Source of the DNA: Candidatus Parcubacteria bacterium
GTDB lineage: Bacteria; Patescibacteriota; Minisyncoccia; Phycocordibacterales; UBA918
Direction of reading: 5' to 3'
DNA length: 32,145 nucleotides
NCBI GenBank assembly: GCA_046050355.1
Contig: JBJOPW010000014.1
Span: forward strand, 1-32,145
Shown here in pieces: positions 1-21,992 of the stretch (the stretch's first letter is position 1; each line of letters opens with the position of its first letter). The translations under genes and the position numbers were made by a program. Below the pieces are notes generated by a model that made no database searches, had not been told where the DNA came from, and saw only the letters and a list, made by a program, of their open reading frames with translations.

Positions 1-206
1 TGATAGGACTTTTCACCATGCTCCAGATATTCTCTGGAGTTTAGGCTACTTCTAAATATTCGATTCTACGAGAACAATAATAGCAGATTTTACTGCCTAT
101 TTCACTCTATCGCATGTTCGTTGCTTTGCTAAGGCTTAAAAGCGAGTATGTGACGTTTTTCTTAGTCTGCATAGCTATGCACCTCGTGCAGGTCTGTCAT
201 TAATTA

Positions 207-1547
207 ATGATGGAAACACAAGTGATGAACAATTTCGGAGTTAAAACCGACGTACCAAAAGTACCAGTTAAGTATCTACTATATGCTAGGAAATCTACCG
301 AGTCTGATGAAAAACAAGCACTTTCAATTGATTCGCAAGTTAAGGAGATGTTAGCTATTGCTGAACGTGAACAACTGGATATTGTTGAAATCAGACGTGA
401 GTCACATTCTGCAAAAGATTCAGGTCAACGACCTGTCTTTAAAGAAATACTTGAAGATATTAGGCGAGAACGTTTCAATGGAATTATCGTGTGGCATCCA
501 GACAGACTGAGCAGGAATGCAGGCGATCTAGGTTCACTCGTCGATCTTATGGATCAGCATTTATTAAGAGAAATCCGTACTTATGGTCAAACATTTACAA
601 ACACGCCAAGTGAAAAGTTTCTTCTGATGATTCTGTGTTCTCAAGCAAAACTTGAGAATGACAATAAAAGTATCAATGTGAAGCGGGGACTGAAAACAAG
701 GGTTGAAATGGGATTATGGCCAGCACCAGCGCCAACTGGCTACCTCAAAGAAAAACGCATGGATCGAAAGTGCGAGACGTATATCGACCCTGAACGTGGA
801 CATGTTATAAAACAGATGTTTGAGAAAGTAGCCTACGAGAAATGGTCAGGGAGAAAGGTCTATCACTGGCTTAAATTCGATATTAATTTCAAAGCCCTAC
901 CGAGCAAGAAACCACTCAGTCTCGGCAACATATACAAGTTATTGGAAAATCCATTTTACTACGGAGTATTTGAGTACCCGAAGAAATCTGGTAATTGGTA
1001 TAACGGCAAACATCCACCACTGATTGCTAAAGAGCTATTTGACCAGGTGCAGACACAGCTTAAAGGTAATGAGTTAAAAACCAGACAAGAAAAAGAATTT
1101 GCTTTTACTAAGCTCATGACATGCGGACTCTGTGGATCCGGTATCAGTGCTGATGAAAAATACAAAAAACTCAAGGATGGAAGCATTAAAGCCCATATCT
1201 ACTATGGGTGTACCAAAGCGAGAGACAAAAACTGCAAGTGTGGGTATATAGCCGAGACGGACTTAGTTAAACAATTACAAACTCTAATTGACGGAGTGCA
1301 AATTAATGAAACTTCTGTACAGAAGAAGATTGTTTCAGAAGTGACTAGATATAAAAAATTTGAACTATCTCTACTGGGTCAAGATTTAAATTTCGAGATT
1401 GGTGACATTGATATTAAGAGGTATATTAAGTTTTTGCTAAAAGAAGGGTCGGTGGAGGAGAAGCGTGAAATCATGACCTGTTTTCAGTCACAGATTATTT
1501 TAAGTCAAAAGAGGCTGGAGCTTAGTACCGAAATCTCTCACCGTTAA
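207..1547 (+). CDS. Large serine recombinase (resolvase + recombinase + zinc-ribbon domains)
   Basis: YARKST catalytic Ser motif, SAKDSGQRP, DRLSRN, APTGY, NPFYYG, GKHPPLI, and CGLCG...YYGC...C zinc ribbon. Exact start uncertain. Confidence 0.92.
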   Translation: MMETQVMNNFGVKTDVPKVPVKYLLYARKSTESDEKQALSIDSQVKEMLAIAEREQLDIVEIRRESHSAKDSGQRPVFKEILEDIRRERFNGIIVWHPDRLSRNAGDLGSLVDLMDQHLLREIRTYGQTFTNTPSEKFLLMILCSQAKLENDNKSINVKRGLKTRVEMGLWPAPAPTGYLKEKRMDRKCETYIDPERGHVIKQMFEKVAYEKWSGRKVYHWLKFDINFKALPSKKPLSLGNIYKLLENPFYYGVFEYPKKSGNWYNGKHPPLIAKELFDQVQTQLKGNELKTRQEKEFAFTKLMTCGLCGSGISADEKYKKLKDGSIKAHIYYGCTKARDKNCKCGYIAETDLVKQLQTLIDGVQINETSVQKKIVSEVTRYKKFELSLLGQDLNFEIGDIDIKRYIKFLLKEGSVEEKREIMTCFQSQIILSQKRLELSTEISHR

Positions 1548-1563
1548 ATAATGTCACTAATAG

Positions 1564-1602
1564 TTGCGTACTTTAAAGTCATGTAATATAATAAGTTACA
1601 TG
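1564..1602 (+). promoter_or_regulatory. sigma70-type promoter with overlapping Rrf2-type operator
   Basis: TTGCGT(1564-1569)-N17-TATAAT(1587-1592). Inverted repeat CATGTAA-N9-TTACATG (1580-1602) spans the -10 box and the ATG at 1600. Confidence 0.75.
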
Positions 1603-2229
1603 ATAAACAATGTAGGCAATAATTCCGAACATCACCATGGCGATTATTCGCAAAACGTCTTTGATAACCCAGAGATGTTTATTGAGAAATTTGATGGAGC
1701 AGAACGAGATGGATGGCAAAAACCAGATGAGGTTATCAAATCTTTTAATCTTCGTGACGATGCTGTCGTAGTCGATATAGGTGCAGGTACGGGATACTTC
1801 ACTGTCCGATTGGCTGAACAGGTAAGGAACGGCAAAGTTATCTGTTTTGAACAAGCACCTAAAATGGCAGAGTACCTTAAAGACCGAGTGATTGGATTAG
1901 GACTTGCCAATGTAGATGTACAGACGACTGAGCTAGACGGTAGTTTTAAGTTAGAAGAACAAGCTGATCTTATATTCTCAGTGGATGTTTACCACCACCT
2001 TAAAGATCGTATTGTCTACTTCACCAAAGTTTTAGAATCCCTTAAACCAGAAGGTCAGCTTGTGGTGATTGATAGGACGGAAGAAAAAATTGAAGGTCAG
2101 CCTATGGGACATCGGGTGTCTCCCGATAAAGTGAAGGAAGAAATGAAGGAAGTCGGGTTTGAGCTGATCGAGGAATTAGATTTTTTGCTACCCATTCAAT
2201 ATTATCTGGCATTCAAACGCACTGTATAA
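1600..2229 (+). CDS. Class I SAM-dependent methyltransferase
   Basis: VVDIGAGTGYF motif I, DVYHHL, LKPEGQLVVID. Start moved to ATG 1600 because the TTG at 1564 is the -35 box. Confidence 0.9.
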   Translation: MINNVGNNSEHHHGDYSQNVFDNPEMFIEKFDGAERDGWQKPDEVIKSFNLRDDAVVVDIGAGTGYFTVRLAEQVRNGKVICFEQAPKMAEYLKDRVIGLGLANVDVQTTELDGSFKLEEQADLIFSVDVYHHLKDRIVYFTKVLESLKPEGQLVVIDRTEEKIEGQPMGHRVSPDKVKEEMKEVGFELIEELDFLLPIQYYLAFKRTV

Positions 2230-2713: not shown

Positions 2714-3037
2714 ATGAACTTGAAACAAATTTATTTTGGCGCATTTGTTATTGGTACCGCTGTCCCTACTTATTTTGCAGTTTCGTTTATGATCCATGAT
2801 GGAGCACTAAATGTACTTGGTTTCATTCGAGATTTGTTTGCCAACTATGCATCAAGTACCTTTTCATCCGACCTACTCATTGCTTCTTTTGTCTTCTGGA
2901 TATTTCTGTGGCATGATGCTAAAGATCGGGAAGTTCCAAGTATTGGATGATTTATGCTATTGAATTTTTGTGTCGGTCTAAGTTCCGCATTACCACTTTA
3001 TTTGTATTTTAGAGAAAAAATAAGTAACATATTATGA
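2714..3037 (+). pseudogene. DUF2834-like membrane protein interrupted by an in-frame TGA at 2948-2950
   Basis: The frame continues past the TGA as FMLLNFCVGLSSALPLYLYFREKISNIL, a family-typical VG.S.ALPLYLY.RE tail, and ends at TGA 3035-3037 overlapping the next ATG. Confidence 0.75.
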
Positions 3038-3219
3038 AAACATTGAAATGCGATTTGTGCGACGTGACAGCAGATGGTGAAACATTTGAAGACTGGATGC
3101 AGGCACTCATGCCACACTACATGCAAGCTCATGCTGATGTAATGAATGATCCAAATAAAACTAAAGAAGACCAGCAAAAATGGATGGTGGAAAACAAGGT
3201 ACGATTTGACGCGGTATAG
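3034..3219 (+). CDS. Small Cys/His protein (DUF1059-like)
   Basis: MKTLKCxxC...H...H pattern; ATGA overlap with the upstream frame. Confidence 0.6.
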   Translation: MKTLKCDLCDVTADGETFEDWMQALMPHYMQAHADVMNDPNKTKEDQQKWMVENKVRFDAV

Positions 3220-3305: not shown

Positions 3306-3396
3306 TGGCGGAGAGTGAGGGATTCGAACCCTCGAGGGGTGTGAACCCCTGCCACGTTAGCAGTGTGGTGCCTTCGGCCAGCTCAGCCAACTCTCC
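3306..3396 (-). tRNA. tRNA-Ser(GCT)
   Basis: GGAGAGT...anticodon loop CT-GCT-AA, long variable arm AGGGG-TTCACA-CCCCT, GAGGG-TTCGAAT-CCCTC T arm, encoded CCA. Confidence 0.96.
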
Positions 3397-4824: not shown

Positions 4825-6075
4825 TTATTTAATCACACTCGCGACCGCTTTCACCAATCCTGGTGTCATCACTGGCGGAATCACCATCTCAGCCGTCGGC
4901 TGCTTTACCAGGCTCGCTATCTTCTTCGCGGCGGCGAGCTTCATTTCATCGGTAATCTTTGTCACACCACGATCAAGGGCGCCACGGAAAATACCGGGGA
5001 ACGCGAGGGAGTTATTCACCTGGTTAGGGTAGTCGCTCCGACCGGTAGCGACCACGTAGGCTCCAGCGCGCTTGGCATCGTCTGGCATGATTTCTGGAAT
5101 CGGATTGGCGAGCGCAAAGACAATTGGCTTTTCGGCCATCTTCTCAATATGGGCTGGTGCAATGGTGCCCGGACCTGAGAGTCCAATGAGCACATCAGCG
5201 CCCGCGACCACACTTTGCACATCACCCTGGAGGCGGTCAGTGTTAGTGGTGAGAGCAAGATCCTTTTTGTACCCAGTAAGGTCCGCGCGTCCTGCATAAA
5301 TAGCCCCTTTACTATCGGTCACAATGATGTGACTGATACCGGCTTTCTTAAGAAGCAGTGTCACTGCGCGCCCTGCGGCACCAGCGCCGACCACGACTAC
5401 CTTCAGATCTTCAAACTTCTTCCCCACCACCTTTGCCGCATTAAGCAGTCCCGCGAGGACTACAATTGCCGTCCCGTGCTGATCATCGTGCATGACCGGA
5501 ATCGAGAGCTCAGCCTTGAGGCGCTCTTCAATCACAAAACAGTGTGGCGCAGCGAAGTCTTCGAGGTTAATCCCGCCAAAGGTCGGCGCAATGGCTTTGA
5601 TGACCTTAATGACTTCCTCTGGGTCCTGCGTATCAAGCACAATTGGGAAGGCGTCGACACCGGCCATCGCTTTGAATATCGCACACTTCCCCTCCATCAC
5701 GGGCAAGGCTGGCACCGCACCGAGGTTTCCGAGACCGAGGATAGCTGAGCCATCAGAGATGACCGCTACCGTATTCTTTTTGATGGTGTATTCGCGTGCT
5801 TCCTTTGGATGCTTGGCGAGGTACGTCGACACAGCACCCACACCAGGACTGTACATGGTACTCCAATCGTCGCGAGTTTCGAGCTTGCCTTTACTCACCA
5901 CCTCAAGCTTCCCTTTGAGTTTTTTGTGGAGGGCGAGCGCCAGCTTGGCGTAGTCTTTTTTCTTGGCCGGTTTTTTGGCAGCGGCTTTTTTGACCACCGG
6001 CTTTACCACCGATTTGGTGGCGGCTTTTTTTGGAGTCGCTTTTTTGGTAACAGGAACTGATTTCTTTGGTGCCAT
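4825..6075 (-). CDS. NAD(P)-dependent malic enzyme (short type, no PTA domain) with Lys/Ala/Pro-rich N-terminal tail
   Basis: YSPGV, VISDGSAILGLGNLG, PVMEGK, GGINLEDF, HDDQHGTAIV, GAGAAG, ALANPIPEI, ATGRSDYPNQVNN. Start placed at ATG 6075; the longer ORF runs through the promoter and repeat. Confidence 0.93.
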   Translation of the reverse strand: MAPKKSVPVTKKATPKKAATKSVVKPVVKKAAAKKPAKKKDYAKLALALHKKLKGKLEVVSKGKLETRDDWSTMYSPGVGAVSTYLAKHPKEAREYTIKKNTVAVISDGSAILGLGNLGAVPALPVMEGKCAIFKAMAGVDAFPIVLDTQDPEEVIKVIKAIAPTFGGINLEDFAAPHCFVIEERLKAELSIPVMHDDQHGTAIVVLAGLLNAAKVVGKKFEDLKVVVVGAGAAGRAVTLLLKKAGISHIIVTDSKGAIYAGRADLTGYKKDLALTTNTDRLQGDVQSVVAGADVLIGLSGPGTIAPAHIEKMAEKPIVFALANPIPEIMPDDAKRAGAYVVATGRSDYPNQVNNSLAFPGIFRGALDRGVTKITDEMKLAAAKKIASLVKQPTAEMVIPPVMTPGLVKAVASVIK

Positions 6076-6132
6076 ACAGAAATGAGTATTTAAAAAAATA
6101 ATGCTCCTAGTATAGCATTGACGGCGTGAGAT

Positions 6133-6244
6133 ACGAAAAAACCCGTCATGAGTCTCTCGGCTACTACAGTAGCGGTACTCATAACAGGTGTGTGGTTCCA
6201 AGCGGTAGCTTGGGGTGGCTCACCCCCTTGTGAGGGACGAGCCG
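6133..6244 (-). repeat. Structured 3'-UTR RNA motif, copy 1 (family A), ending in a terminator
   Basis: 98/112 nt identical to 9208-9319. Three hairpins followed by a U-tract on the minus strand. Confidence 0.88.
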
Positions 6245-6265
6245 GTTGATTGGGAGACGCCCAGG

Positions 6266-7033
6266 TCAGGACGCCGCGGCGGCGCGCTTCTCGTGGCCGG
6301 CGCCGGACGACTTGGTCTCGGCGATGGTCGAAGCGGGCGGAATGCCGATTCCGAAGGCGGACAGGCCGGTGGTCGAGATGTCGACGATGTTGCCGTCTTC
6401 GCCCAGGCGGCCGATGTGGCCCTTGGACACCCAGGTCTGGCCCGATTTCGTCGCTTCCACGGCCAGCACGATGTCCTTGGCGGAGTCCTCGGCAACGATG
6501 AAGACCATCTCCGCGAGAACCACCTTCGTGACATCGAGGAGCGTACCTTCGCCGACCTGCAGATGGTTGCTGAAGATCAGCTCTGCGCCATCACCCGTGC
6601 CGGTCATCTTGCCGAGGTATTCGCCACCGTTGGCCTGCATCAGCTTGATCGCGACGAGACGCGAGTCGATCTTCAGCGCCTTGCCGTTGTCGAGCATCAG
6701 GACGCCGCCCGAGCGGACGGCTTCGAAGTCGAGACCGTTGTCGCCCGACTGCAGTTCAGCCGTCGCAAAGACCATGTTGTCGTCGAGGTCGTAGGTGCCG
6801 AGACCGACGCTCAGGAGCGACGAGTCTTCGCCCGGCTGCATCGCGATGAAACGACCGGATTCGGCGCGGGCGATGAGGTAGTTGCCGACGATGTCGGCCG
6901 GCAGTTCGATCAGGTCGACCTTGATGGAAGCGATGGAATTGTCCAGCGTGTTGGCCGCCACGATCGTGGGAACCGACGACGCCAGGATCAAGGCCATGGT
7001 CGTGGCGACAGTGCGTTTCGAAGTGGTCTTCAT
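6266..7033 (-). CDS. Orphan GC-rich secreted protein (Sec-type signal peptide), cassette A
   Basis: 255 aa; MKTTSKR + hydrophobic stretch + VAA. SD GGGAG 7 nt before ATG. 60-68% GC in sampled lines with mostly G/C-ending codons. Confidence 0.8.
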   Translation of the reverse strand: MKTTSKRTVATTMALILASSVPTIVAANTLDNSIASIKVDLIELPADIVGNYLIARAESGRFIAMQPGEDSSLLSVGLGTYDLDDNMVFATAELQSGDNGLDFEAVRSGGVLMLDNGKALKIDSRLVAIKLMQANGGEYLGKMTGTGDGAELIFSNHLQVGEGTLLDVTKVVLAEMVFIVAEDSAKDIVLAVEATKSGQTWVSKGHIGRLGEDGNIVDISTTGLSAFGIGIPPASTIAETKSSGAGHEKRAAAAS

Positions 7034-7200
7034 TGGGTCTCTCCCGTTGGTTGCTTCAATGATCTTTCACACCTCATCCGTCCGAAGACGGCGGTGTCGT
7101 GCAGAACAAACATCAGTTTGCAGGCACAGGGCGACATTTAATCACATATCAAATACGAATACAAGTGACTTATACCAAACTGCCTATAACCAAATCTCAG

Positions 7201-7321
7201 ATACGAAAAAGGCCATACGAGGGTGCCCATTCGTCTGCCTATGCAGAGGGTACCTTGTATGGACTTGGGTGGAAGCAAATGCTTCCGGGTTGGGAGCGGT
7301 CGAGGGGACCGCTCCCAAACC
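7201..7321 (-). repeat. Structured 3'-UTR RNA motif, copy 3 (family B)
   Basis: Same architecture as family A with different sequence: GGGAGCGGTC/GACCGCTCCC hairpin, GGAAGC-N4-GCTTCC, long stem capped by TCTGC-N4-GCAGA, then TTTTTCGTAT. Confidence 0.75.
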
Positions 7322-7365
7322 TCATGTGCGCTTGGGATGATCACGCGATCTGGCTGACATCGCGG

Positions 7366-7560
7366 TCACGACAGCTTGATGTTGGTGAAGACGGCAGCGC
7401 CCGCGGCTTCCATGTCCAGGCCCAGCGAGGCGTCCTTGTCGGCCGTGATGTGCCCGGTGTCACCGATCTTCGTCTCGACCTTGCCACTCGAACCGCCGCG
7501 CGCCGCATCGACCATGGCATAGGTCCGTCCGCGCAGTGCGCGCATCGTGAGATTTTTCAT
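7366..7560 (-). CDS. Orphan GC-rich 64-aa protein, cassette B
   Basis: GGAGAGGTG just upstream of ATG 7560; promoter TTGCAG-N17-TATAAA; GC3-rich codons. Confidence 0.65.
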   Translation of the reverse strand: MKNLTMRALRGRTYAMVDAARGGSSGKVETKIGDTGHITADKDASLGLDMEAAGAAVFTNIKLS

Positions 7561-7837
7561 TTCACCTCTCCATCCGATTTCTATTGGGGGTACGCCCCGC
7601 AACCACCTCCCTGTATCCGGAGTGGTACTTACCTTTATACTCCGATTAATAAATCTCTGCAAGAAGACAGGGAGCGAGTATGGGTATATTAAAAATCAGC
7701 AAAACGTCTCAGTATTTAAAAAAAATTGGCATTGGAAAAGGCGCGGTGAAGATGTAGAGACATCAGCAGATTCGCGCCTTTACCGATGATAATCTTCGAC
7801 GGGTCGTACGACGCGTCGGTAGACGGTTCGGTGTCGT

Positions 7838-8086
7838 TTAGCAAGGAACCCTCCTGGGGTGTTGACGATAGTCGCGGGGCTGGAACAGTTCCAGTCCGCC
7901 ATCATCATGAAAACGAAGATACTCGTAGCGTCCATCGTCAAGCCGACGACAAACGAGCTGCAGTTCTTCTCGAGCGAACAGCTCGGACTCGTGCACATGC
8001 CAGTAACTGCAGGCTACAGCCAGCAACACCGCTTCGGACAACCGCAGAGGGGGTCCATGGTCGTGTAAAGAACGGAAGTCAAACAT
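7838..8086 (-). CDS. Orphan 82-aa protein, cassette C
   Basis: AAAGGAGG (8093-8100) 6 nt before ATG 8086; possible TTGGTG-N17-TACTAT promoter. Confidence 0.55.
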   Translation of the reverse strand: MFDFRSLHDHGPPLRLSEAVLLAVACSYWHVHESELFAREELQLVCRRLDDGRYEYLRFHDDGGLELFQPRDYRQHPRRVPC

Positions 8087-8190
8087 CTCGGGCCTCCTTT
8101 CTAGGCTCGGGTGGTGACGCATCATGCGGTACCTACTTTTATAGTACAGACAAATATTCCAAACACCAACACCATCGCTGGTTATAAAAC

Positions 8191-8267
8191 AAAAAACCCA
8201 GCCGTAAAGGCTGGTTGTCATACTTTATTCCGGAAGGCAGCGATGCTCGGCATCGCTGCCTTTCGGA
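8191..8267 (-). terminator. Strong 3' hairpin plus intrinsic terminator of cassette D
   Basis: 13-bp perfect stem AAGGCAGCGATGC/GCATCGCTGCCTT (8234-8262), then CCAGCC-N5-GGCTGG with a U-tract on the minus strand. Confidence 0.75.
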
Positions 8268-8287
8268 CACGATCAGATTTCCTTTGG

Positions 8288-8725
8288 TCATACTATCTTC
8301 CCGTTCTTCACCCGAGGACCACGACCCTGACGCCTCGTAGCCGAAGCCGGGGGAGTGTTCAGCCGCTGCCAGAACGGCTCCAGTTTGGGTGGTTCCAAGT
8401 CAGGAAGTGGCATCTCCACCACCTTATGTGACCCGAAAAAAATCTCTGAAACCCCCAGCTGAGCGACAGTATCAACCTCCACCAAGAGCGGCTGGCGGAT
8501 GACCCCGAAGCTGAGACCAGCTGCAGGATCGAGGTCTGGCACTAACAAGCCAAGACCACTCGTAAAGGCGCGGAGAGCGTGCACCTCTTGGTCTGGTGGT
8601 TGCAGAAAGGAACTGCCATCATCCACCACAACAATGACCGCCACTTCATCTCCCTCGCCTGAAAGGCGACTCCGCACCGCCGCAGCAATCGCCGCTGCCG
8701 TAGTGCACACATCGACTCTCTTCAT
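8288..8725 (-). CDS. Orphan ~145-aa protein, cassette D
   Basis: AGGGAGG (8734-8740) 8 nt before ATG 8725; promoter TTGCGT-N17-TATAGT; alternative start 8743. Confidence 0.65.
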   Translation of the reverse strand: MKRVDVCTTAAAIAAAVRSRLSGEGDEVAVIVVVDDGSSFLQPPDQEVHALRAFTSGLGLLVPDLDPAAGLSFGVIRQPLLVEVDTVAQLGVSEIFFGSHKVVEMPLPDLEPPKLEPFWQRLNTPPASATRRQGRGPRVKNGKIV

Positions 8726-8786
8726 CTTTCTAGCCTCCCTCATGCTTTCCTACCGCTACTATACGGACAGGCTACTTAAAACGCAA

Positions 8787-8825
8787 ATACGAAAAAGGCC
8801 ATACGCGGAAGCCCGTTCATCTACC
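8787..8825 (-). repeat. Truncated family-B motif (3' arm only)
   Basis: 33/39 nt identical to 7201-7239; the pairing 5' arm is absent. Confidence 0.75.
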
Positions 8826-8851
8826 AGAGACATTCTCGACACAGAAGCAAC

Positions 8852-9184
8852 CTACTCATGAGTAGAAAAACCCACAAAGTGTATCTGGTGTGTACTAGCC
8901 GTACCTTGTTGTTTGAAGTCTCTAATTGACCCCTCAACTGATACATATCTCTGGATCTTTCCGGTTTCATCGGCAGCTTCAATAATAAGTACCTGCCCCT
9001 TTTCTGTATCTTCGAGTTTGGCACCATACAAGGCACTCTCTTGTAATTCTTTGGTAACTGGTATTTCTACCTGCACTTGTAGATTGTATCGTCCAGGCGG
9101 TAAACCTGCCTTTGATTGTATATAAGCAAACAGTTTCTCATGCGGAGTTAAGACTGACTCAGCAGATACCGGTTTTTCAAACAT
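8852..9184 (-). CDS. Hypothetical protein, AT-rich, leaderless type
   Basis: 110-aa ORF; TG-c-TATAAT 7 nt before ATG; no SD. Confidence 0.7.
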   Translation of the reverse strand: MFEKPVSAESVLTPHEKLFAYIQSKAGLPPGRYNLQVQVEIPVTKELQESALYGAKLEDTEKGQVLIIEAADETGKIQRYVSVEGSIRDFKQQGTASTHQIHFVGFSTHE

Positions 9185-9207
9185 ATACGTAATTATAGCA
9201 AACTCAG

Positions 9208-9319
9208 ACGAAAAAACCCGTCATGAGTCCCTCGGCTACAATAGTAGCAGTACTCATAACAGGTGGATTAATCCAAGCGAATGCTTGGGGTGGCTCACCC
9301 CCTTGTGAGGGGTGAGCCG
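9208..9319 (-). repeat. Structured 3'-UTR RNA motif, copy 2 (family A)
   Basis: 98/112 nt identical to 6133-6244; differences lie in loops and linker or become G-U pairs. Confidence 0.88.
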
Positions 9320-9337
9320 TTGTTGGAACGATCAGGT

Positions 9338-9712
9338 CTACTGCGCCATCATGAGGCGCATCCGGCCGCCGGCTCCGTGTCCAACGAGCTGCTTCAGACC
9401 GGCAGCGAGGCGCGCGACGTGTCCCCCGGCCGCTGAAGCGAAAGTGCGATGCGACTTCGCCGATCCGCCTTCCGGCTGGCGCCGATAGAAATTGTCATCC
9501 ATGTCGCGCCGAAGGACCAGATGATCGCCCATGATCAGTCGACCGGCCGACATCAGCCTGAGGGCGATCGCACCGGCGCCCACGGCGAGCACGATGAGGG
9601 CGACGAGTCCGACATCGAGCCTGAACGAGGCGCTGGCCAGCATCGTGATGAGGAACAGAGGGGCGAGAATCAAAACGGCCGCAGCCGCGAAAAGACGGAA
9701 GTCAAGTTTCAT
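9338..9712 (-). CDS. Orphan GC-rich membrane protein (2 TM), cassette E
   Basis: SD GGGAG 8 nt before ATG 9712; promoter TTGCAC-N17-TATTGT; two hydrophobic N-terminal helices. Confidence 0.72.
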   Translation of the reverse strand: MKLDFRLFAAAAVLILAPLFLITMLASASFRLDVGLVALIVLAVGAGAIALRLMSAGRLIMGDHLVLRRDMDDNFYRRQPEGGSAKSHRTFASAAGGHVARLAAGLKQLVGHGAGGRMRLMMAQ

Positions 9713-9831
9713 CAGTAACACTCCCAGGTTGGTTTCGAAACAGCGACACACCATGTGCCACTCAAAATACAATACGCCCAATTGCCAGAGAGTGCAATAG
9801 GTAGCGGTCTAATTTGCTATACTACTCTCAC

Positions 9832-12096
9832 ATGTCCCCGAACGACCTTCTCACTACTCATTTCCGTGTTGACACCATCCACCAGAAGGCGCTCAAGCGA
9901 CTGGGTATCACCACCGTCTACGATCTCCTCATGCACCTCCCCGCTCGCTACGAGGACGTCAGTGATATTCAATCGGTTGGTGGTCTCGTCAAAGATCAAG
10001 AGGCCATCGTCTTTGGCCAGCTGTCTGGCCTTAAGACCCGTAAAGCCTGGAAGAGCAAACGCCCCATCTCCGAAGGCTACATCGAAGACGGCTCGGCCAA
10101 GATAAAGGTGATGTGGTTCAACCAACCGTACATGGCCAAGATGTACAGCGATGGTATGTATGTGAAGCTGGTTGGCAAAGTAACCGGTAGCGAAGGTAAG
10201 CTCTATATCGCCAACCCCGAAGTCGAAAAACTCGATACCCTCCCCGTCGACCGTCACGACAGTATCTTCAAAGGGAGCGAAATCACCGACGACACCATCT
10301 ACCCGGTCTACCGCGAGACCAAAGGCGTGACGAGCAAGTGGTTCTACCATACGGCGCTCAAGTGTTTTGAGAAGGGCGTGCTTGAAACCCTCCTTGACCC
10401 CATTCCTGAAGCAATACTCACGAAGTACAAACTCCCCAATCTCAAGACCGCCCTCGTCTGGATTCATAGTCCAAAGAAGGCTGAGCACGCGGAGAGTGCT
10501 CGCAAGCGCTTCGCCTTTGAAGAAGTCTTTTATATTCAAGTACAGAAGGCACTTGATCGCGCTGCCGTGAGCGCCGCCACCACGTATCAGGTGAATACCG
10601 ACAAGAAACATCTTGAAGCTTTCACCAGCCGCTTCCCCTTTGCACTGACGCCAGCGCAAGAGACTGCCATCGCGACTATCATCAAAAACTTCACCGATAA
10701 TGTCGCCATGAGTCGCCTCCTTGAGGGAGATGTGGGGAGCGGCAAGACCGCGGTCGCAGCCACTACCGCGTACGCGGTCGCGACCTCACGTCCACCCGAA
10801 GGCCGAAAAAATTATACCACAAAAAACTCAAGTACGAGGCAAGACCTCGAACAAGTACGAGGTCTTGCCTCGTCTGTTGCTGATTTGGAATATGGAAACT
10901 TGCAGGTGGCGTATATGGCACCGACGGAAATTTTGGCCAAGCAACACTTCGAATCATTTATTGAGTACTTCAAACACCTCCCTATCAACATTGGCCTTAT
11001 CACCGGGAGTGGTTGCCAAAAGTTCCCGAGCAAAAGTAACCCAAACAAGCCCACCCCCATCAGCAAAGCCCAGCTCCTGAAGTGGGTCAAAAACGGCGAG
11101 GTACCCATCCTCATCGGTACCCATGCGCTCATCTACAAGAGTGTTGAGTTCAAACACCTCGCCTACGTCATTATCGACGAGCAGCACCGTTTTGGGACCA
11201 ATCAGCGGAAGGCACTTGCGAAGAAAGACGCTCGCATGCCACACCTCCTCTCGATGACTGCGACCCCAATTCCCCGTACGCTCGCGCTCACTATCTACGG
11301 CGACCTTGATATCACGCTCCTTGATCAAATGCCCAAGGGGCGCAAACCCATCATCACCAAAATCATTGGCCCTGGCCAAGCAGCGTCGATGTACGACCAT
11401 GTCCGCAGTGAACTCGAGACCGGTAGACAGGCCTATGTCATCTGTCCACGGATTGAGGAACCTGACCCGGACAAACAAACCGCTTTGATTCTCAAATCCG
11501 TCACCGCTGAAGCGGAGCGCCTTGGTAAAACCGAATTCAAAGACTGGCGCCTCGGGGTACTCCACGGCAAGATGACCCCGGCTGAAAAGGATAAAGTGAT
11601 GGCGAGGTTTGCAGCGCACGAACTTGATATCTTGGTCGCAACGTCGGTAGTTGAAGTCGGCGTGAACGTGCCAAATGCGACGAATATCATCATCGAAGGT
11701 GCTGAACGGTTTGGTCTCTCGCAGCTCCACCAGCTACGTGGCCGTGTTGTGCGTGGAACTCACCAGCCGTACTGCTTTGCGGTGACTGATAGTAAAAGTG
11801 AGAAAACGAAAGAACGCCTTAAGGCACTAGTGACTGCCAAAAATGGATTTGAACTCGCCGAACACGACCTCACCTTCCGCGGTAGCGGCGAACTCTATGG
11901 GGCGAAGCAGTCTGGTCTCTCCGACCTCGGGATGGAAGCGATTAAGAACCTCAAGCTCGTCGAGGCGGCGCGCAACGAAGCCCGCGACCTCGTCGCCCAC
12001 CTTCCCTTCAATCACACCACCCCCGACCTTGCCCGCCACTTCCCCCTCATCGCCGAGCGTGTTGCAAAAATTGGCGAAAGCCTGCATATGGAATGA
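9832..12096 (+). CDS. recG: ATP-dependent DNA helicase RecG
   Basis: Wedge domain (WFNQPY), RLLEGDVGSGKT, MAPTEILAKQH, IIDEQHRFG, MTATPIPRTL, AERFGLSQLHQLRGRV, NGFELAEHDL.FRGSGE. Confidence 0.97.
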   Translation: MSPNDLLTTHFRVDTIHQKALKRLGITTVYDLLMHLPARYEDVSDIQSVGGLVKDQEAIVFGQLSGLKTRKAWKSKRPISEGYIEDGSAKIKVMWFNQPYMAKMYSDGMYVKLVGKVTGSEGKLYIANPEVEKLDTLPVDRHDSIFKGSEITDDTIYPVYRETKGVTSKWFYHTALKCFEKGVLETLLDPIPEAILTKYKLPNLKTALVWIHSPKKAEHAESARKRFAFEEVFYIQVQKALDRAAVSAATTYQVNTDKKHLEAFTSRFPFALTPAQETAIATIIKNFTDNVAMSRLLEGDVGSGKTAVAATTAYAVATSRPPEGRKNYTTKNSSTRQDLEQVRGLASSVADLEYGNLQVAYMAPTEILAKQHFESFIEYFKHLPINIGLITGSGCQKFPSKSNPNKPTPISKAQLLKWVKNGEVPILIGTHALIYKSVEFKHLAYVIIDEQHRFGTNQRKALAKKDARMPHLLSMTATPIPRTLALTIYGDLDITLLDQMPKGRKPIITKIIGPGQAASMYDHVRSELETGRQAYVICPRIEEPDPDKQTALILKSVTAEAERLGKTEFKDWRLGVLHGKMTPAEKDKVMARFAAHELDILVATSVVEVGVNVPNATNIIIEGAERFGLSQLHQLRGRVVRGTHQPYCFAVTDSKSEKTKERLKALVTAKNGFELAEHDLTFRGSGELYGAKQSGLSDLGMEAIKNLKLVEAARNEARDLVAHLPFNHTTPDLARHFPLIAERVAKIGESLHME
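10834..10873. repeat. Palindromic (REP/RPE-like) element inside recG
   Basis: Perfect 16-bp inverted repeat ACGAGGCAAGACCTCG-N8-CGAGGTCTTGCCTCGT. Confidence 0.8.
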
Positions 12097-21562: not shown

Positions 21563-21988
21563 GGGGATGCCAGGCATCGACGGAATTGCATCGTCCCCGT
21601 GTGCAGTGCGAGTGCTGCTCGAGATCACTCTGAAAAACTCGAGTACCTGTACGTGCAAAGAATAGCGTACCAAGTCCTTACGCCAACGCGTTTGGATTCG
21701 CTCCCGCTGTAGCGTAACTTACGCACGGTACGTTAAAGGCCTCGCCTCTAACGTACCGAGCCGGACGACGCTCGCTTCCCTCATGTCTCATACGGGAATG
21801 CGGGTGAAATAGCCATGAGGCTCTGACTTTTTATGCCGTTTTCATAAAAAGTTGAATTTCTTAAAACTCGGCGCCTGGTTGTTTTGTCTTCTTTCTAGAC
21901 CAGTCGCTTAAACCAAAAGGAAGTCTACGCACTGTAGACTCACGGTGACATCAATTCTCGGACTGGGGTTCGAATCCCCACATCTCCA
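21563..21988 (+). ncRNA. ssrA: tmRNA
   Basis: 5' GGGGATG pairs with 3' CATCTCC-A including G3-U; T arm TGGGG-TTCGAAT-CCCCA; tag frame 21655-21717 AKNSVPSPYANAFGFAPAVA*; close to smpB. Confidence 0.93.
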
Positions 21989-21992
21989 CATT

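What the first reader, a model, noticed from the sequence alone, without database searches (positions are those of the whole stretch)
6133..9319. Apparently undescribed ~112-120 nt three-hairpin 3'-UTR RNA motif shared by unrelated cassette genes, with covariation
Seen: copies 6133-6244 and 9208-9319 are 98/112 identical, yet the genes upstream are unrelated. Ten of the 14 differences fall in two tetraloops and a linker, two in an internal loop, and two become G-U pairs only on the minus (sense) strand. Copy 7201-7321 differs in sequence but keeps the layout. P1 is a GC hairpin. P2 is xxAAGC-N4-GCTTxx, with outer pairs switching CC/GG to GG/CC. P3 is a long stem capped by a 5-bp/4-nt hairpin (GCTAC/GTAGC versus TCTGC/GCAGA) followed by unpaired CGAR, then a U-tract and CGT(AT)CT. 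This is more than a terminator needs; ordinary terminators here are single perfect hairpins. Inference: a protein-binding zip-code for export, packaging or stability, or a cassette recombination/retro-priming site.
Basis: partly seen in the sequence, partly recalled or inferred. Interest (0 to 1): 0.88.

Follow-up and report, generated by a model that had tools for sequence, protein, structure and literature searches.

The report
Shared three-hairpin terminator after variable genes
A roughly 120-base stretch that folds into three hairpins and ends in a run of U sits behind three unrelated, unusually GC-rich small genes in a variable island of a tiny Patescibacteria genome; it is a real, undescribed, lineage-specific element, but it most likely works as a compound transcription terminator and RNA-end protector rather than as something exotic.

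Summary
Copies 6133-6244 and 9208-9319 are 88% identical over 112 nt. A covariance model built from four close copies finds the divergent copy 7198-7330 at 42 bits, E 2.6e-11. No Rfam family matches at gathering score or at E<=5. On 14 copies, 93.3% of pair cells are paired against 70.8% when shuffled, and 29 of 35 pairs change on both sides.

The element lies in a variable island between the malic-enzyme and recG genes, always just after an orphan ORF with very high GC3. It is rare: 8 of 128 genomes of the genus, six of 22 metagenome loci, and none of 13 viral loci.

Best reading (0.6): a modular hairpin-cluster intrinsic terminator and 3'-end protector in a genome with no Rho found. It belongs to a conserved non-coding frame around fast-changing ORF bodies. 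P2 is itself the terminator in sister loci and is missing in others.

The zip-code, attC-like and retro-priming readings have no direct support. No RNA data were available. Interest is moderate.

The parts
6128..6256 (-). Copy A, whole element (box CUCCCAA 6250-6256; P1 6217-6243; P2 6198-6213; P3 6141-6189 with apical hairpin 6160-6173 and CGA bulge 6157-6159; U6 6136-6141; CGUAUCU 6129-6135)
   Evidence: (149.4 bits)
9203..9331 (-). Copy B, whole element (P1 9292-9318; P2 9273-9288; P3 9216-9264 with apical hairpin 9235-9248; U6 9211-9216; CGU 9208-9210)
   Evidence: (145.8 bits)
7198..7330 (-). Copy C, divergent element (P1 7288-7321; P2 GGAAGC-AUUU-GCUUCC 7271-7286; P3 7209-7266 with apical hairpin 7234-7247 and CGA 7231-7233; U5 7206-7210; CGUAUCU 7199-7205)
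   Evidence: 42.4 bits with a model that excluded it; 100.1 bits with R2
8778..8825 (-). Truncated copy: 3' arm of a copy-C-type P3, U-tract and CGUAUUU only; does not fold
   Evidence: D3 (81% to 7192-7239), (z -0.06), table 7 (contigs of run X2 match 8785-8826 and then continue as a full copy-C-like P3 arm)
6266..7033 (-). Upstream ORF of copy A: 255 aa, signal-peptide-like N-terminus (by eye), GC3 0.86, the highest of 857 ORFs of the genome; orphan
   Evidence: 5 proteins found; found in 1 of 401 genomes of the class, the window's own
7366..7560 (-). Upstream ORF of copy C: 64 aa, GC3 0.82, no Pfam family; conserved in metagenome locus L140 (77% nt)
9338..9712 (-). Upstream ORF of copy B: 124 aa, hydrophobic N-terminal half (by eye), GC3 0.75, no Pfam family; about 41% identical homologues in G007 and G025
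7034..7197 (-). Promoter-like region and about 125-nt 5' leader of ORF 6266-7033. It is 80-89% identical in 4 other loci, with a long near-invariant stretch, although the ORF bodies behind it differ
4825..6075 (-). Malic enzyme gene, conserved left border of the variable island
9814..12096 (+). recG, conserved right border of the variable island

Best explanation
The element is a lineage-specific, modular cluster of RNA hairpins at the 3' end of the mRNAs of a few orphan, very GC3-rich genes. P3 plus its U-tract is the intrinsic terminator. It stops transcription before the next gene's promoter region, in a genome where no Rho was found. P1 and P2, stacked 3 and 8 nt upstream, reinforce termination and shield the 3' end from the 3'-to-5' exonucleases the genome encodes (inferred). 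The modules are interchangeable. P2 followed by a T-run is the terminator in sister loci, P2 is missing in others, and P1 and P3 occur in several sequence versions. The element also belongs to a conserved non-coding frame (promoter region and 5' leader, C-terminal tail, 3' element) around ORF bodies that are swapped or diverge extremely fast between related genomes. It therefore probably also serves as a homology anchor for that exchange (inferred, less certain).
For: Structure: folds with z -5.4 to -7.4. The same hairpins are predicted de novo. On 14 copies 93.3% of cells are paired against 70.8 +/- 1.3 shuffled and at most 47.7% when partners are slid; 29 of 35 pairs change on both sides. 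Strand and terminator: a run of at least 4 T follows P3 in all 14 rows. G-U cells number 28 against 7 A-C cells on the sense strand. All 11 copies with a recognisable upstream ORF lie 3' of it on its strand. P1 starts about 19-44 nt after the stop codon. Context: no Rho RNA-binding domain in a 99.97% complete genome. An RNB-family exonuclease and a PNPase-like ORF are present. Modularity: CCAAGC-N4-GCTTGG occurs at 27 sites in 24 of 128 genus genomes against 8 control sites in 7. In at least 9 of the 24 loci inspected a run of 5 or more T follows the stem within about 10 nt. Three loci (G077, G142, G151) have a GC-rich P1 just upstream and no P3. Hairpin clusters are reported as the commoner termination unit (abstract of PMC8355165). 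Frame: between the window and G007 or G025 the element is 84-87% identical and the 5' leader 80-89%. The ORF body between them has no detectable DNA similarity. The proteins fall into two families that hhalign relates only weakly (probability 36%).
Against: No RNA evidence: no RNA run holds the locus, so 3' ends and stability are untested. The simple terminator scan does not flag P3, because its 'loop' is a structured 23-nt insert. The copy-C type carries A-C mismatches on the sense strand, has no G-U there, and folds better on the plus strand. That does not fit pure RNA-level selection on the sense strand. A plain terminator does not explain three conserved features: the P3 cap (CUrC-N4-GyAG followed by a 3'-side CGA bulge), the CGUAUCU box after the U-tract, and the CUCCCAA box before P1. 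These are kept between copies that share little else. The covariation alignment was fitted to the model and its sequences are related, so the shuffle figures overstate significance. In the MAFFT-only subset only 5 of 31 pairs show compensatory change.
Confidence: 0.6

Rival explanations
1. A specific protein- or RNA-recognition element in the 3' UTR (localisation, regulated stability, or a 3'-UTR-derived small RNA). The conserved P3 cap with its CGA bulge, or the CUCCCAA box, would be the recognition site, and termination would be incidental.
For: Sequence, not only pairing, is conserved in the P3 cap and bulge (CUrC-N4-GyAG-(a/c)YGA) in copy-A and copy-C types and in G095, which otherwise differ. 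The CGUAUCU and CUCCCAA boxes are conserved. The element is as conserved as, or more conserved than, the neighbouring malic-enzyme coding sequence (81-88% vs 69-90%). Upstream ORFs look secreted or membrane-bound (by eye; sequences).
Against: No candidate binding protein was identified. G093 and G111 copies lack the cap motif. Loops and linkers, where an sRNA seed would sit, are the most variable parts. Only 3 copies per genome. No RNA data.
Confidence: 0.15
2. A DNA-level recombination site: cassettes (ORF plus element) are inserted or exchanged by a site-specific or structure-specific recombinase that acts on the hairpins as single-stranded or cruciform DNA, as at integron attC sites.
For: The island is a variable array of co-oriented small ORFs between conserved genes. 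Copy B shares only the element itself with copy A, with sharp borders (YCCAA ... CGU). A truncated copy breaks at the P3 apex, and contigs of co-occurring strains diverge at 8822-8826 and at 6248 and 6310. Copy C folds better on the other strand. Hairpin covariation is equally expected for DNA palindromes.
Against: No RYYYAAC...GTTRRRY pair on either strand in 5900-9900. The two PF00589 matches of the genome lie on other contigs. The architecture is three tandem hairpins, not one bipartite hairpin. A T-run follows on one strand only, in all 14 rows. The cassettes appear to carry their own -10-like boxes (by eye), unlike integron cassettes. The G-U excess lies on the sense strand. Contig-level breakpoints may come from other strains or species.
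Confidence: 0.12
3. No selected function beyond an ordinary terminator: a local duplication or gene conversion of one 3' UTR within the island, with hairpins kept only because any terminator needs them.
For: Only three copies and a remnant, all within 3.2 kb. The element is restricted to 8 of 128 genomes of the genus. Two copies are 88% identical.
Against: P1 and P2 keep pairing through compensatory changes in copies with entirely different stem sequences (10 of 11 P1 pairs and 6 of 6 P2 pairs change on both sides). The element is conserved across species at the level of the housekeeping neighbour. The same P1-ACC-P2 layout follows a GC3-0.92 ORF at a different locus in G151 and a GC3-0.78 ORF in G142.
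Confidence: 0.1
4. A retro-priming or retrohoming signal used by the genome's reverse transcriptase.
For: The genome encodes an RT, and high-GC3 ORFs include its target gene.
Against: The RT sits in a canonical DGR on contig C11 with its own TR/VR pair (122 nt, 18 mismatches, 14 at template adenines). BLAST of C11:1-3000 against the genome finds nothing in the island. The three ORF ends share no repeat with any template.
Confidence: 0.02

Closest known systems
Hairpin-cluster intrinsic terminators (Gupta and Pal 2021, PMC8355165; abstract and outline read)
   Same: Two or more hairpins less than 15 nt apart, close behind the stop codon on the gene's strand. Here the gaps are 3 and 8 nt and the last hairpin is followed by a U-tract.
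   Different: Those clusters are gene-specific. Here one cluster is conserved in sequence behind unrelated genes and across species. Its last hairpin carries a conserved apical hairpin and a 3'-side CGA bulge.
REP/BIME and similar intergenic stem-loop repeats that stabilise upstream mRNA (recalled, not from a call)
   Same: Repeated extragenic hairpins at 3' ends of unrelated genes. The proposed role is a barrier to 3'-to-5' exonucleases.
   Different: REP-type repeats occur in tens to hundreds of copies genome-wide. This element has 3 copies and a remnant, all in one island. No REP-associated transposase was sought.
Integron attC sites (features recalled, tested)
   Same: A structured element at the 3' end of each of several co-oriented promoter-proximal small ORFs in a variable array.
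   Different: No R''/R' core sites. No integrase on the contig. Three tandem hairpins plus a U-tract instead of one bipartite hairpin. The cassettes seem to have their own promoter-like boxes (by eye).
FinO/ProQ-type recognition of terminator hairpins and their flanks (PMC12001967; search listing and start of abstract only)
   Same: Sequence around an intrinsic terminator hairpin can be a specific protein-binding site, which would fit the conserved boxes around P3.
   Different: No FinO-domain protein was sought or found here. This is an analogy only.
Expression loci with conserved flanks and exchangeable coding cassettes, such as antigenic-variation loci (recalled)
   Same: Conserved promoter-leader and 3' end, with the coding body replaced or hyper-diverged between close relatives.
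   Different: No silent donor cassettes were seen in the genome. Variation is seen between genomes and strains, not shown within one cell line.

Membership tests
Intrinsic (Rho-independent) terminator | Stable GC-containing RNA stem-loop on the gene's strand downstream of the stop codon | tested here: met
   P3 has a 13-bp lower stem in copies A and B. Whole-element folds give z -5.4 to -7.4. Position and strand are read.
Intrinsic (Rho-independent) terminator | U-tract immediately 3' of the stem | tested here: met
   U6, U6 and U5 in the three window copies. A run of at least 4 T follows P3 in 14 of 14 aligned copies.
Intrinsic (Rho-independent) terminator | Simple hairpin with a short loop (3-8 nt), as used by consensus scanners | tested here: not met
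   The scan of 5900-9950 lists 7 terminator-like sites, none at a P3. The P3 stem encloses a 23-nt structured insert.
Intrinsic (Rho-independent) terminator | Transcript 3' ends map to the U-tract | not testable with these tools
   No RNA run holds the locus. Only contigs could be laid.
Hairpin-cluster termination unit (PMC8355165) | Two or more hairpins less than 15 nt apart, within about 80 nt of the stop codon | tested here: met
   P1-P2 gap 3 nt and P2-P3 gap 8 nt. P1 starts about 19-44 nt after the stop. The definition is from the abstract.
Any Rfam 15 family | Covariance-model match at gathering score | tested here: not met
   The window gives only tmRNA and one tRNA. At E<=5 on 6000-9900 there are four weak hits, none on an element. 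Relatives' loci give only tRNAs.
Integron attC | R'' (RYYYAAC) and R' (GTTRRRY) core sites bounding a 57-141-nt imperfect palindrome | tested here: not met
   The regex on both strands gives 0 matches in 5900-9900 and 2 in the whole window. The consensus was recalled.
Integron attC | Adjacent integron integrase (tyrosine recombinase) | tested here: not met
   PF00589 matches only on contigs C8 and C4, not on C14. Integrase-less arrays exist, so this test is weak.
REP/BIME/MITE-like interspersed repeat | Many dispersed copies per genome | tested here: not met
   BLAST and the covariance model find only the 3 copies, plus a remnant, in 940 kb.
DGR target-site element (VR/IMH with downstream hairpin) | The upstream ORF end is a variable repeat matching a template repeat | tested here: not met
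   The only TR (C11:2438-2559) matches only its own VR.

The most novel reading that the evidence does not exclude
The malic-recG island is a dedicated expression site for exchangeable surface or secreted proteins of an episymbiotic Patescibacterium. A conserved promoter-leader and the three-hairpin 3' element bracket ORF bodies that are swapped between strains by recombination in these flanks. Frequent recombination (GC-biased gene conversion) would explain the extreme GC3. The conserved P3 cap with its CGA bulge and the CGUAUCU box would be recognised by a dedicated protein that couples RNA 3'-end formation with cassette exchange or with the fate of the mRNA.
Probability: 0.2. Interest if true: 0.75.

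Novelty: new variant of a known kind. Interest (0 to 1): 0.42.

Why it matters
Non-coding RNA biology of Patescibacteria is almost unexplored. My three literature searches listed nothing on structured 3' elements or variable islands in this group. This is a clean, covariation-supported 3' element that is better conserved than the genes it follows. It marks a hot spot where orphan, extremely GC3-rich, probably exported proteins turn over between close relatives. Such proteins are candidates for host interaction in organisms thought to live attached to other cells. If the element is only a compound terminator, it is still a useful part for annotating gene ends in Rho-less ultra-small genomes, and a ready-made insulator for the emerging genetics of this group. 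If its conserved cap and boxes are recognised by a protein or recombinase, it would be a new handle on how these reduced genomes vary their surface.

Tried and rejected
- Expression: the look-up of sequencing runs listed no RNA holder. Read laying gave contigs only, and the one RNA run had next to none of the stretch.
Only 3 carry the motif: L043 among the 100 scanned with R1, and L122 and L128 among the 18 scanned with R2. The rest are chance hits in GC-rich genomes.
- Viral origin: 0 of 13 viral loci matching the DNA pattern carry the motif. No viral relative of ORF family A or of ORF 9338-9712 was found.
- Degenerate P3-cap pattern CTRCNNNNGYAGMYGA across the genus: hits in 119 of 128 genomes with many control hits, too loose to say anything.
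- The weak model hits G130 (24.7 bits) and C2:65090-65192 (E 0.032) look like ordinary terminators or chance. I do not count them as members, so 8 of 128 includes one doubtful genome.
- Other high-GC3 ORFs of the genome (13 inspected) do not carry the element, so it is not a general mark of GC-rich genes.
- K-turn reading of the CGA bulge: rejected by eye against a recalled consensus, because no GA lies on the opposite strand next to the cap helix.
- SECIS or read-through reading: copy B follows TAG and an in-frame TGA two codons later.
- The CGUAUCU box as a -35 element of the next promoter: spacing to the -10-like box varies from 9 to 17 nt (by eye). The promoter scan found 0 sigma-70-type sites.
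- ESM Atlas for ORF 6266-7033: no family, and the model has low confidence.
- Family A against family B by hhalign: probability 36%, undecided.
Full report
**What is there.** The window is contig C14 of a 940-kb, 17-contig genome of about 48% GC. A locus from a related genome that carries the same motif (L043) bears a record title naming a 'Candidatus Paceibacteria bacterium' MAG. Between the malic-enzyme gene (4825-6075, minus) and recG (9814-12096, plus) lie six small minus-strand ORFs without any Pfam family. Three of them (6266-7033, 7366-7560, 9338-9712) are each followed by the element, 19-44 nt after the stop codon.

**Check of the observation.** Copies 6133-6244 and 9208-9319 are a 112-nt direct repeat at 88% identity. 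Folded as minus-strand RNA, all three copies give P1 (a GC hairpin), P2 (xxAAGC-N4-GCUUxx) and a long P3 with an apical 5-bp hairpin. A U5-6 run and CGU(AUCU) follow. Energies lie 5.4 to 7.4 SD below shuffles.

A covariance model (R1) built from four close copies, without copy 7201, finds copy 7201 full-length on the same strand at 42.4 bits, E 2.6e-11. RNAalifold on a plain MAFFT alignment of eight copies predicts the same helices. A fourth, truncated copy (8778-8825) keeps only the 3' arm of P3, the U-tract and CGUAU, and does not fold.

**Known families.** Rfam 15 gives only a tmRNA (21563-21991) and a tRNA (3309-3396) in the window at gathering score. In 6000-9900 at E<=5 there are four weak hits, none on an element. 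Three full-text searches listed no paper on such an element in Patescibacteria.

**Distribution.**
- In the window's own genome, BLAST and R1 find only these copies.
- In the genus, R1 finds matches in 6 of 128 genomes. The broader model R2 (built from 14 copies) finds 8 of 128, counting the window's genome and one doubtful hit, G130.
Three of them carry the motif.
- A pattern scan of metagenome contigs returned 22 loci, six with strong matches and one of these with a second, copy-C-type element.
- None of 13 viral loci that matched the pattern carries the motif.

The element is therefore real but confined to a small clade.

**Covariation.** On the 14-row model-fitted alignment A5, 93.3% of 464 pair cells are standard pairs, against 70.8 +/- 1.3% after shuffling and at most 47.7% when partners are slid. 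Twenty-nine of 35 pairs show changes on both sides: 10 of 11 in P1, 6 of 6 in P2, 11 of 13 in P3 and 2 of 5 in the cap.

Two caveats apply. The alignment was fitted to the structure and the rows are related. In the MAFFT-only subset of close copies, only 5 of 31 pairs are compensatory.

On the sense strand there are 28 G-U cells and 7 A-C cells. However, 27 of the 28 G-U cells are in copy-A-type rows and many are inherited. The copy-C-type rows have A-C and no G-U, and copy C folds better on the plus strand (-68.3 vs -59.1 kcal/mol). Strand evidence therefore rests mainly on the T-run, which follows P3 in all 14 rows on the sense strand only.

**Context.** The malic-island-recG arrangement is syntenic in G007, G025, G093 and G111. 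The island content varies. Between the window and G007 or G025:
- the element is 84-87% identical;
- the 164-nt promoter-like region and 5' leader of ORF 6266-7033 is 80-89% identical;
- the ORF body between them has no detectable DNA similarity.

The leader contains a long near-invariant stretch across five genomes. The proteins at this position fall into two families: family A (the window's ORF and four metagenomic proteins at 45-53% identity) and family B (G025, G007, G093). They share only a C-terminal tail by BLASTP and are related only weakly by hhalign (probability 36%). Family A was found in none of 400 other genomes sampled from the class and has no viral relative.

**GC3.** ORF 6266-7033 has the highest GC3 of 857 ORFs of the genome: 0.86 against a mean of 0.49, SD 0.09. 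The other two element-bearing ORFs have 0.82 and 0.75. Across genomes, 9 of 11 ORFs upstream of an element have GC3 of at least 0.73. One is a GC3-0.92 ORF in G151 at a different locus, upstream of a different housekeeping gene. Thirteen other high-GC3 ORFs of the window's genome do not carry the element.

**Modularity.** The stem CCAAGC-N4-GCTTGG occurs at 27 sites in 24 of 128 genus genomes, against 8 sites in 7 genomes for the reversed control. Among the 24 loci inspected, at least 9 have a run of five or more T within about 10 nt after the stem. These are plain terminators, some behind tRNA genes. In G077, G142 and G151 a GC-rich P1 sits just before P2 and there is no P3.

The G007 and G025 orthologues of copy C lack P2 altogether. 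G093 and G111 have other P3 sequences without the cap motif. A second class of 3' elements in the G007 and G025 islands begins with a GC hairpin and a P2-like CCAAGCC-UCU-GGCUUG, then continues into a different U-tract hairpin. Other island genes have their own one- or two-hairpin ends.

The 'motif' is therefore one combination drawn from a pool of terminator-type hairpins. Three features are conserved beyond pairing: the P3 cap (CUrC-N4-GyAG) with a 3'-side (a/c)YGA bulge, the CGUAUCU box after the U-tract, and a CUCCCAA box before P1.

**Mechanism.** No Rho RNA-binding domain is found in this 99.97% complete genome, whereas the control search finds it in 9 of 14 reference genomes. An RNB-family exonuclease and a PNPase-like ORF are present. 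Clusters of closely spaced hairpins after stop codons are reported as the commoner form of intrinsic termination unit (abstract of PMC8355165).

I therefore read the element as a compound intrinsic terminator. P3 plus the U-tract releases the transcript before the next gene's -10-like box (seen by eye; the consensus scan finds no sigma-70-type promoter). P1 and P2 back this up and protect the 3' end. This step is inferred, because no RNA data exist.

The element also lies at the edges of the segments that differ between genomes. Contigs of co-occurring strains match short pieces around the elements and then diverge: at 6248 and 6310, and at 8822-8826, where they continue as an intact copy-C-type P3 arm. 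This fits exchange of ORF bodies through the conserved flanks, but such contig ends may also come from other organisms.

**Rivals.**
- An attC-like site is not supported. There are no core-site pairs, no recombinase gene on the contig, and the architecture is different.
- Retro-priming is close to excluded. The only RT is part of a canonical DGR on contig C11, with TR 2438-2559 and VR 2918-3039 and 14 of 18 mismatches at template adenines. It has no similarity to the island.
- A dedicated protein-binding function of the cap and boxes cannot be tested here and is the main open point.

**Verdict.** It is best classed as a new, clade-specific variant of a known kind, the hairpin-cluster terminator and 3'-end stabiliser. 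Its more interesting side is the conserved non-coding frame around hyper-variable, extremely GC3-rich orphan genes.

Noticed in passing
own genome contig C11:987-3719 (not in the window): A complete diversity-generating retroelement. RT ORF 987-2036 (minus), template repeat 2438-2559, and variable repeat 2918-3039 at the 3' end of a 266-aa ORF with GC3 0.79. The repeats are 122 nt with 18 mismatches, 14 of them at template adenines.
   Followed up: partly
window 1-331 and own genome C11:1-332: The start of the window is 88.6% identical, in reverse orientation, to the start of contig C11. This is either a repeated segment or two diverged copies at contig ends.
   Followed up: no
window 7034-7197 (minus): The promoter-like region and 5' leader of ORF 6266-7033 is nearly invariant over about 60 nt in five genomes. 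It contains a conserved hairpin (CACGACACCGCCGUCUUCGGACGGAUGAGGUGUG) and a variable hairpin with compensatory changes. It may be a regulatory leader in its own right.
   Followed up: partly
window 6266-6340 (minus) and loci L015, L016, L017, L178, L201: ORFs upstream of the element share a C-terminal tail (...GAGH-D/E/G...R...A-A/S) even when the rest of the protein is not alignable. Conservation therefore runs from the last 10-25 codons into the 3' element.
   Followed up: partly
L015:4945-5090, L015:5545-5690, L016:8790-8930, L016:9690-9835 (minus): A second class of conserved 3' elements in the islands of G007 and G025: a GC hairpin, a P2-like CCAAGCC-UCU-GGCUUG that can pair locally or with a distal CCAGAGG, then a long U-tract hairpin (z -3.9 to -7.6). 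The alternative pairing looks switch-like.
   Followed up: partly
genus genomes, loci L180-L203: CCAAGC-N4-GCTTGG is a recurrent terminator stem in this genus: 27 sites in 24 of 128 genomes against 8 control sites in 7. Some sites lie directly behind tRNA genes.
   Followed up: partly
window 6250-6256, 9320-9326 (minus) versus 7040-7050 and 9722-9732: The box CUCCCAA (UUCCAA in copy B) just 5' of P1 is complementary to the Shine-Dalgarno-like (U)GGGAG of the cassette mRNAs. Possible 3'-5' pairing was not tested.
   Followed up: no
window 9185-9200 (minus): ORF 8852-9184 starts only about 7 nt after a TATAAT box (GCTATAATTACGTATATG), so it may be a leaderless mRNA. This low-GC3 (0.33) ORF sits where a copy-C-type element is truncated.
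   Followed up: no
window 21563-21991 and 3309-3396: A tmRNA gene (104.6 bits) and a tRNA gene (47.8 bits) are the only Rfam matches in the window.
   Followed up: no
own genome: No Rho RNA-binding domain (PF07497) was detected in a 99.97% complete genome. RNB (C6:46168-47154) and a two-RNase_PH-domain PNPase-like ORF (C9:29113-30453) are present.
   Followed up: partly
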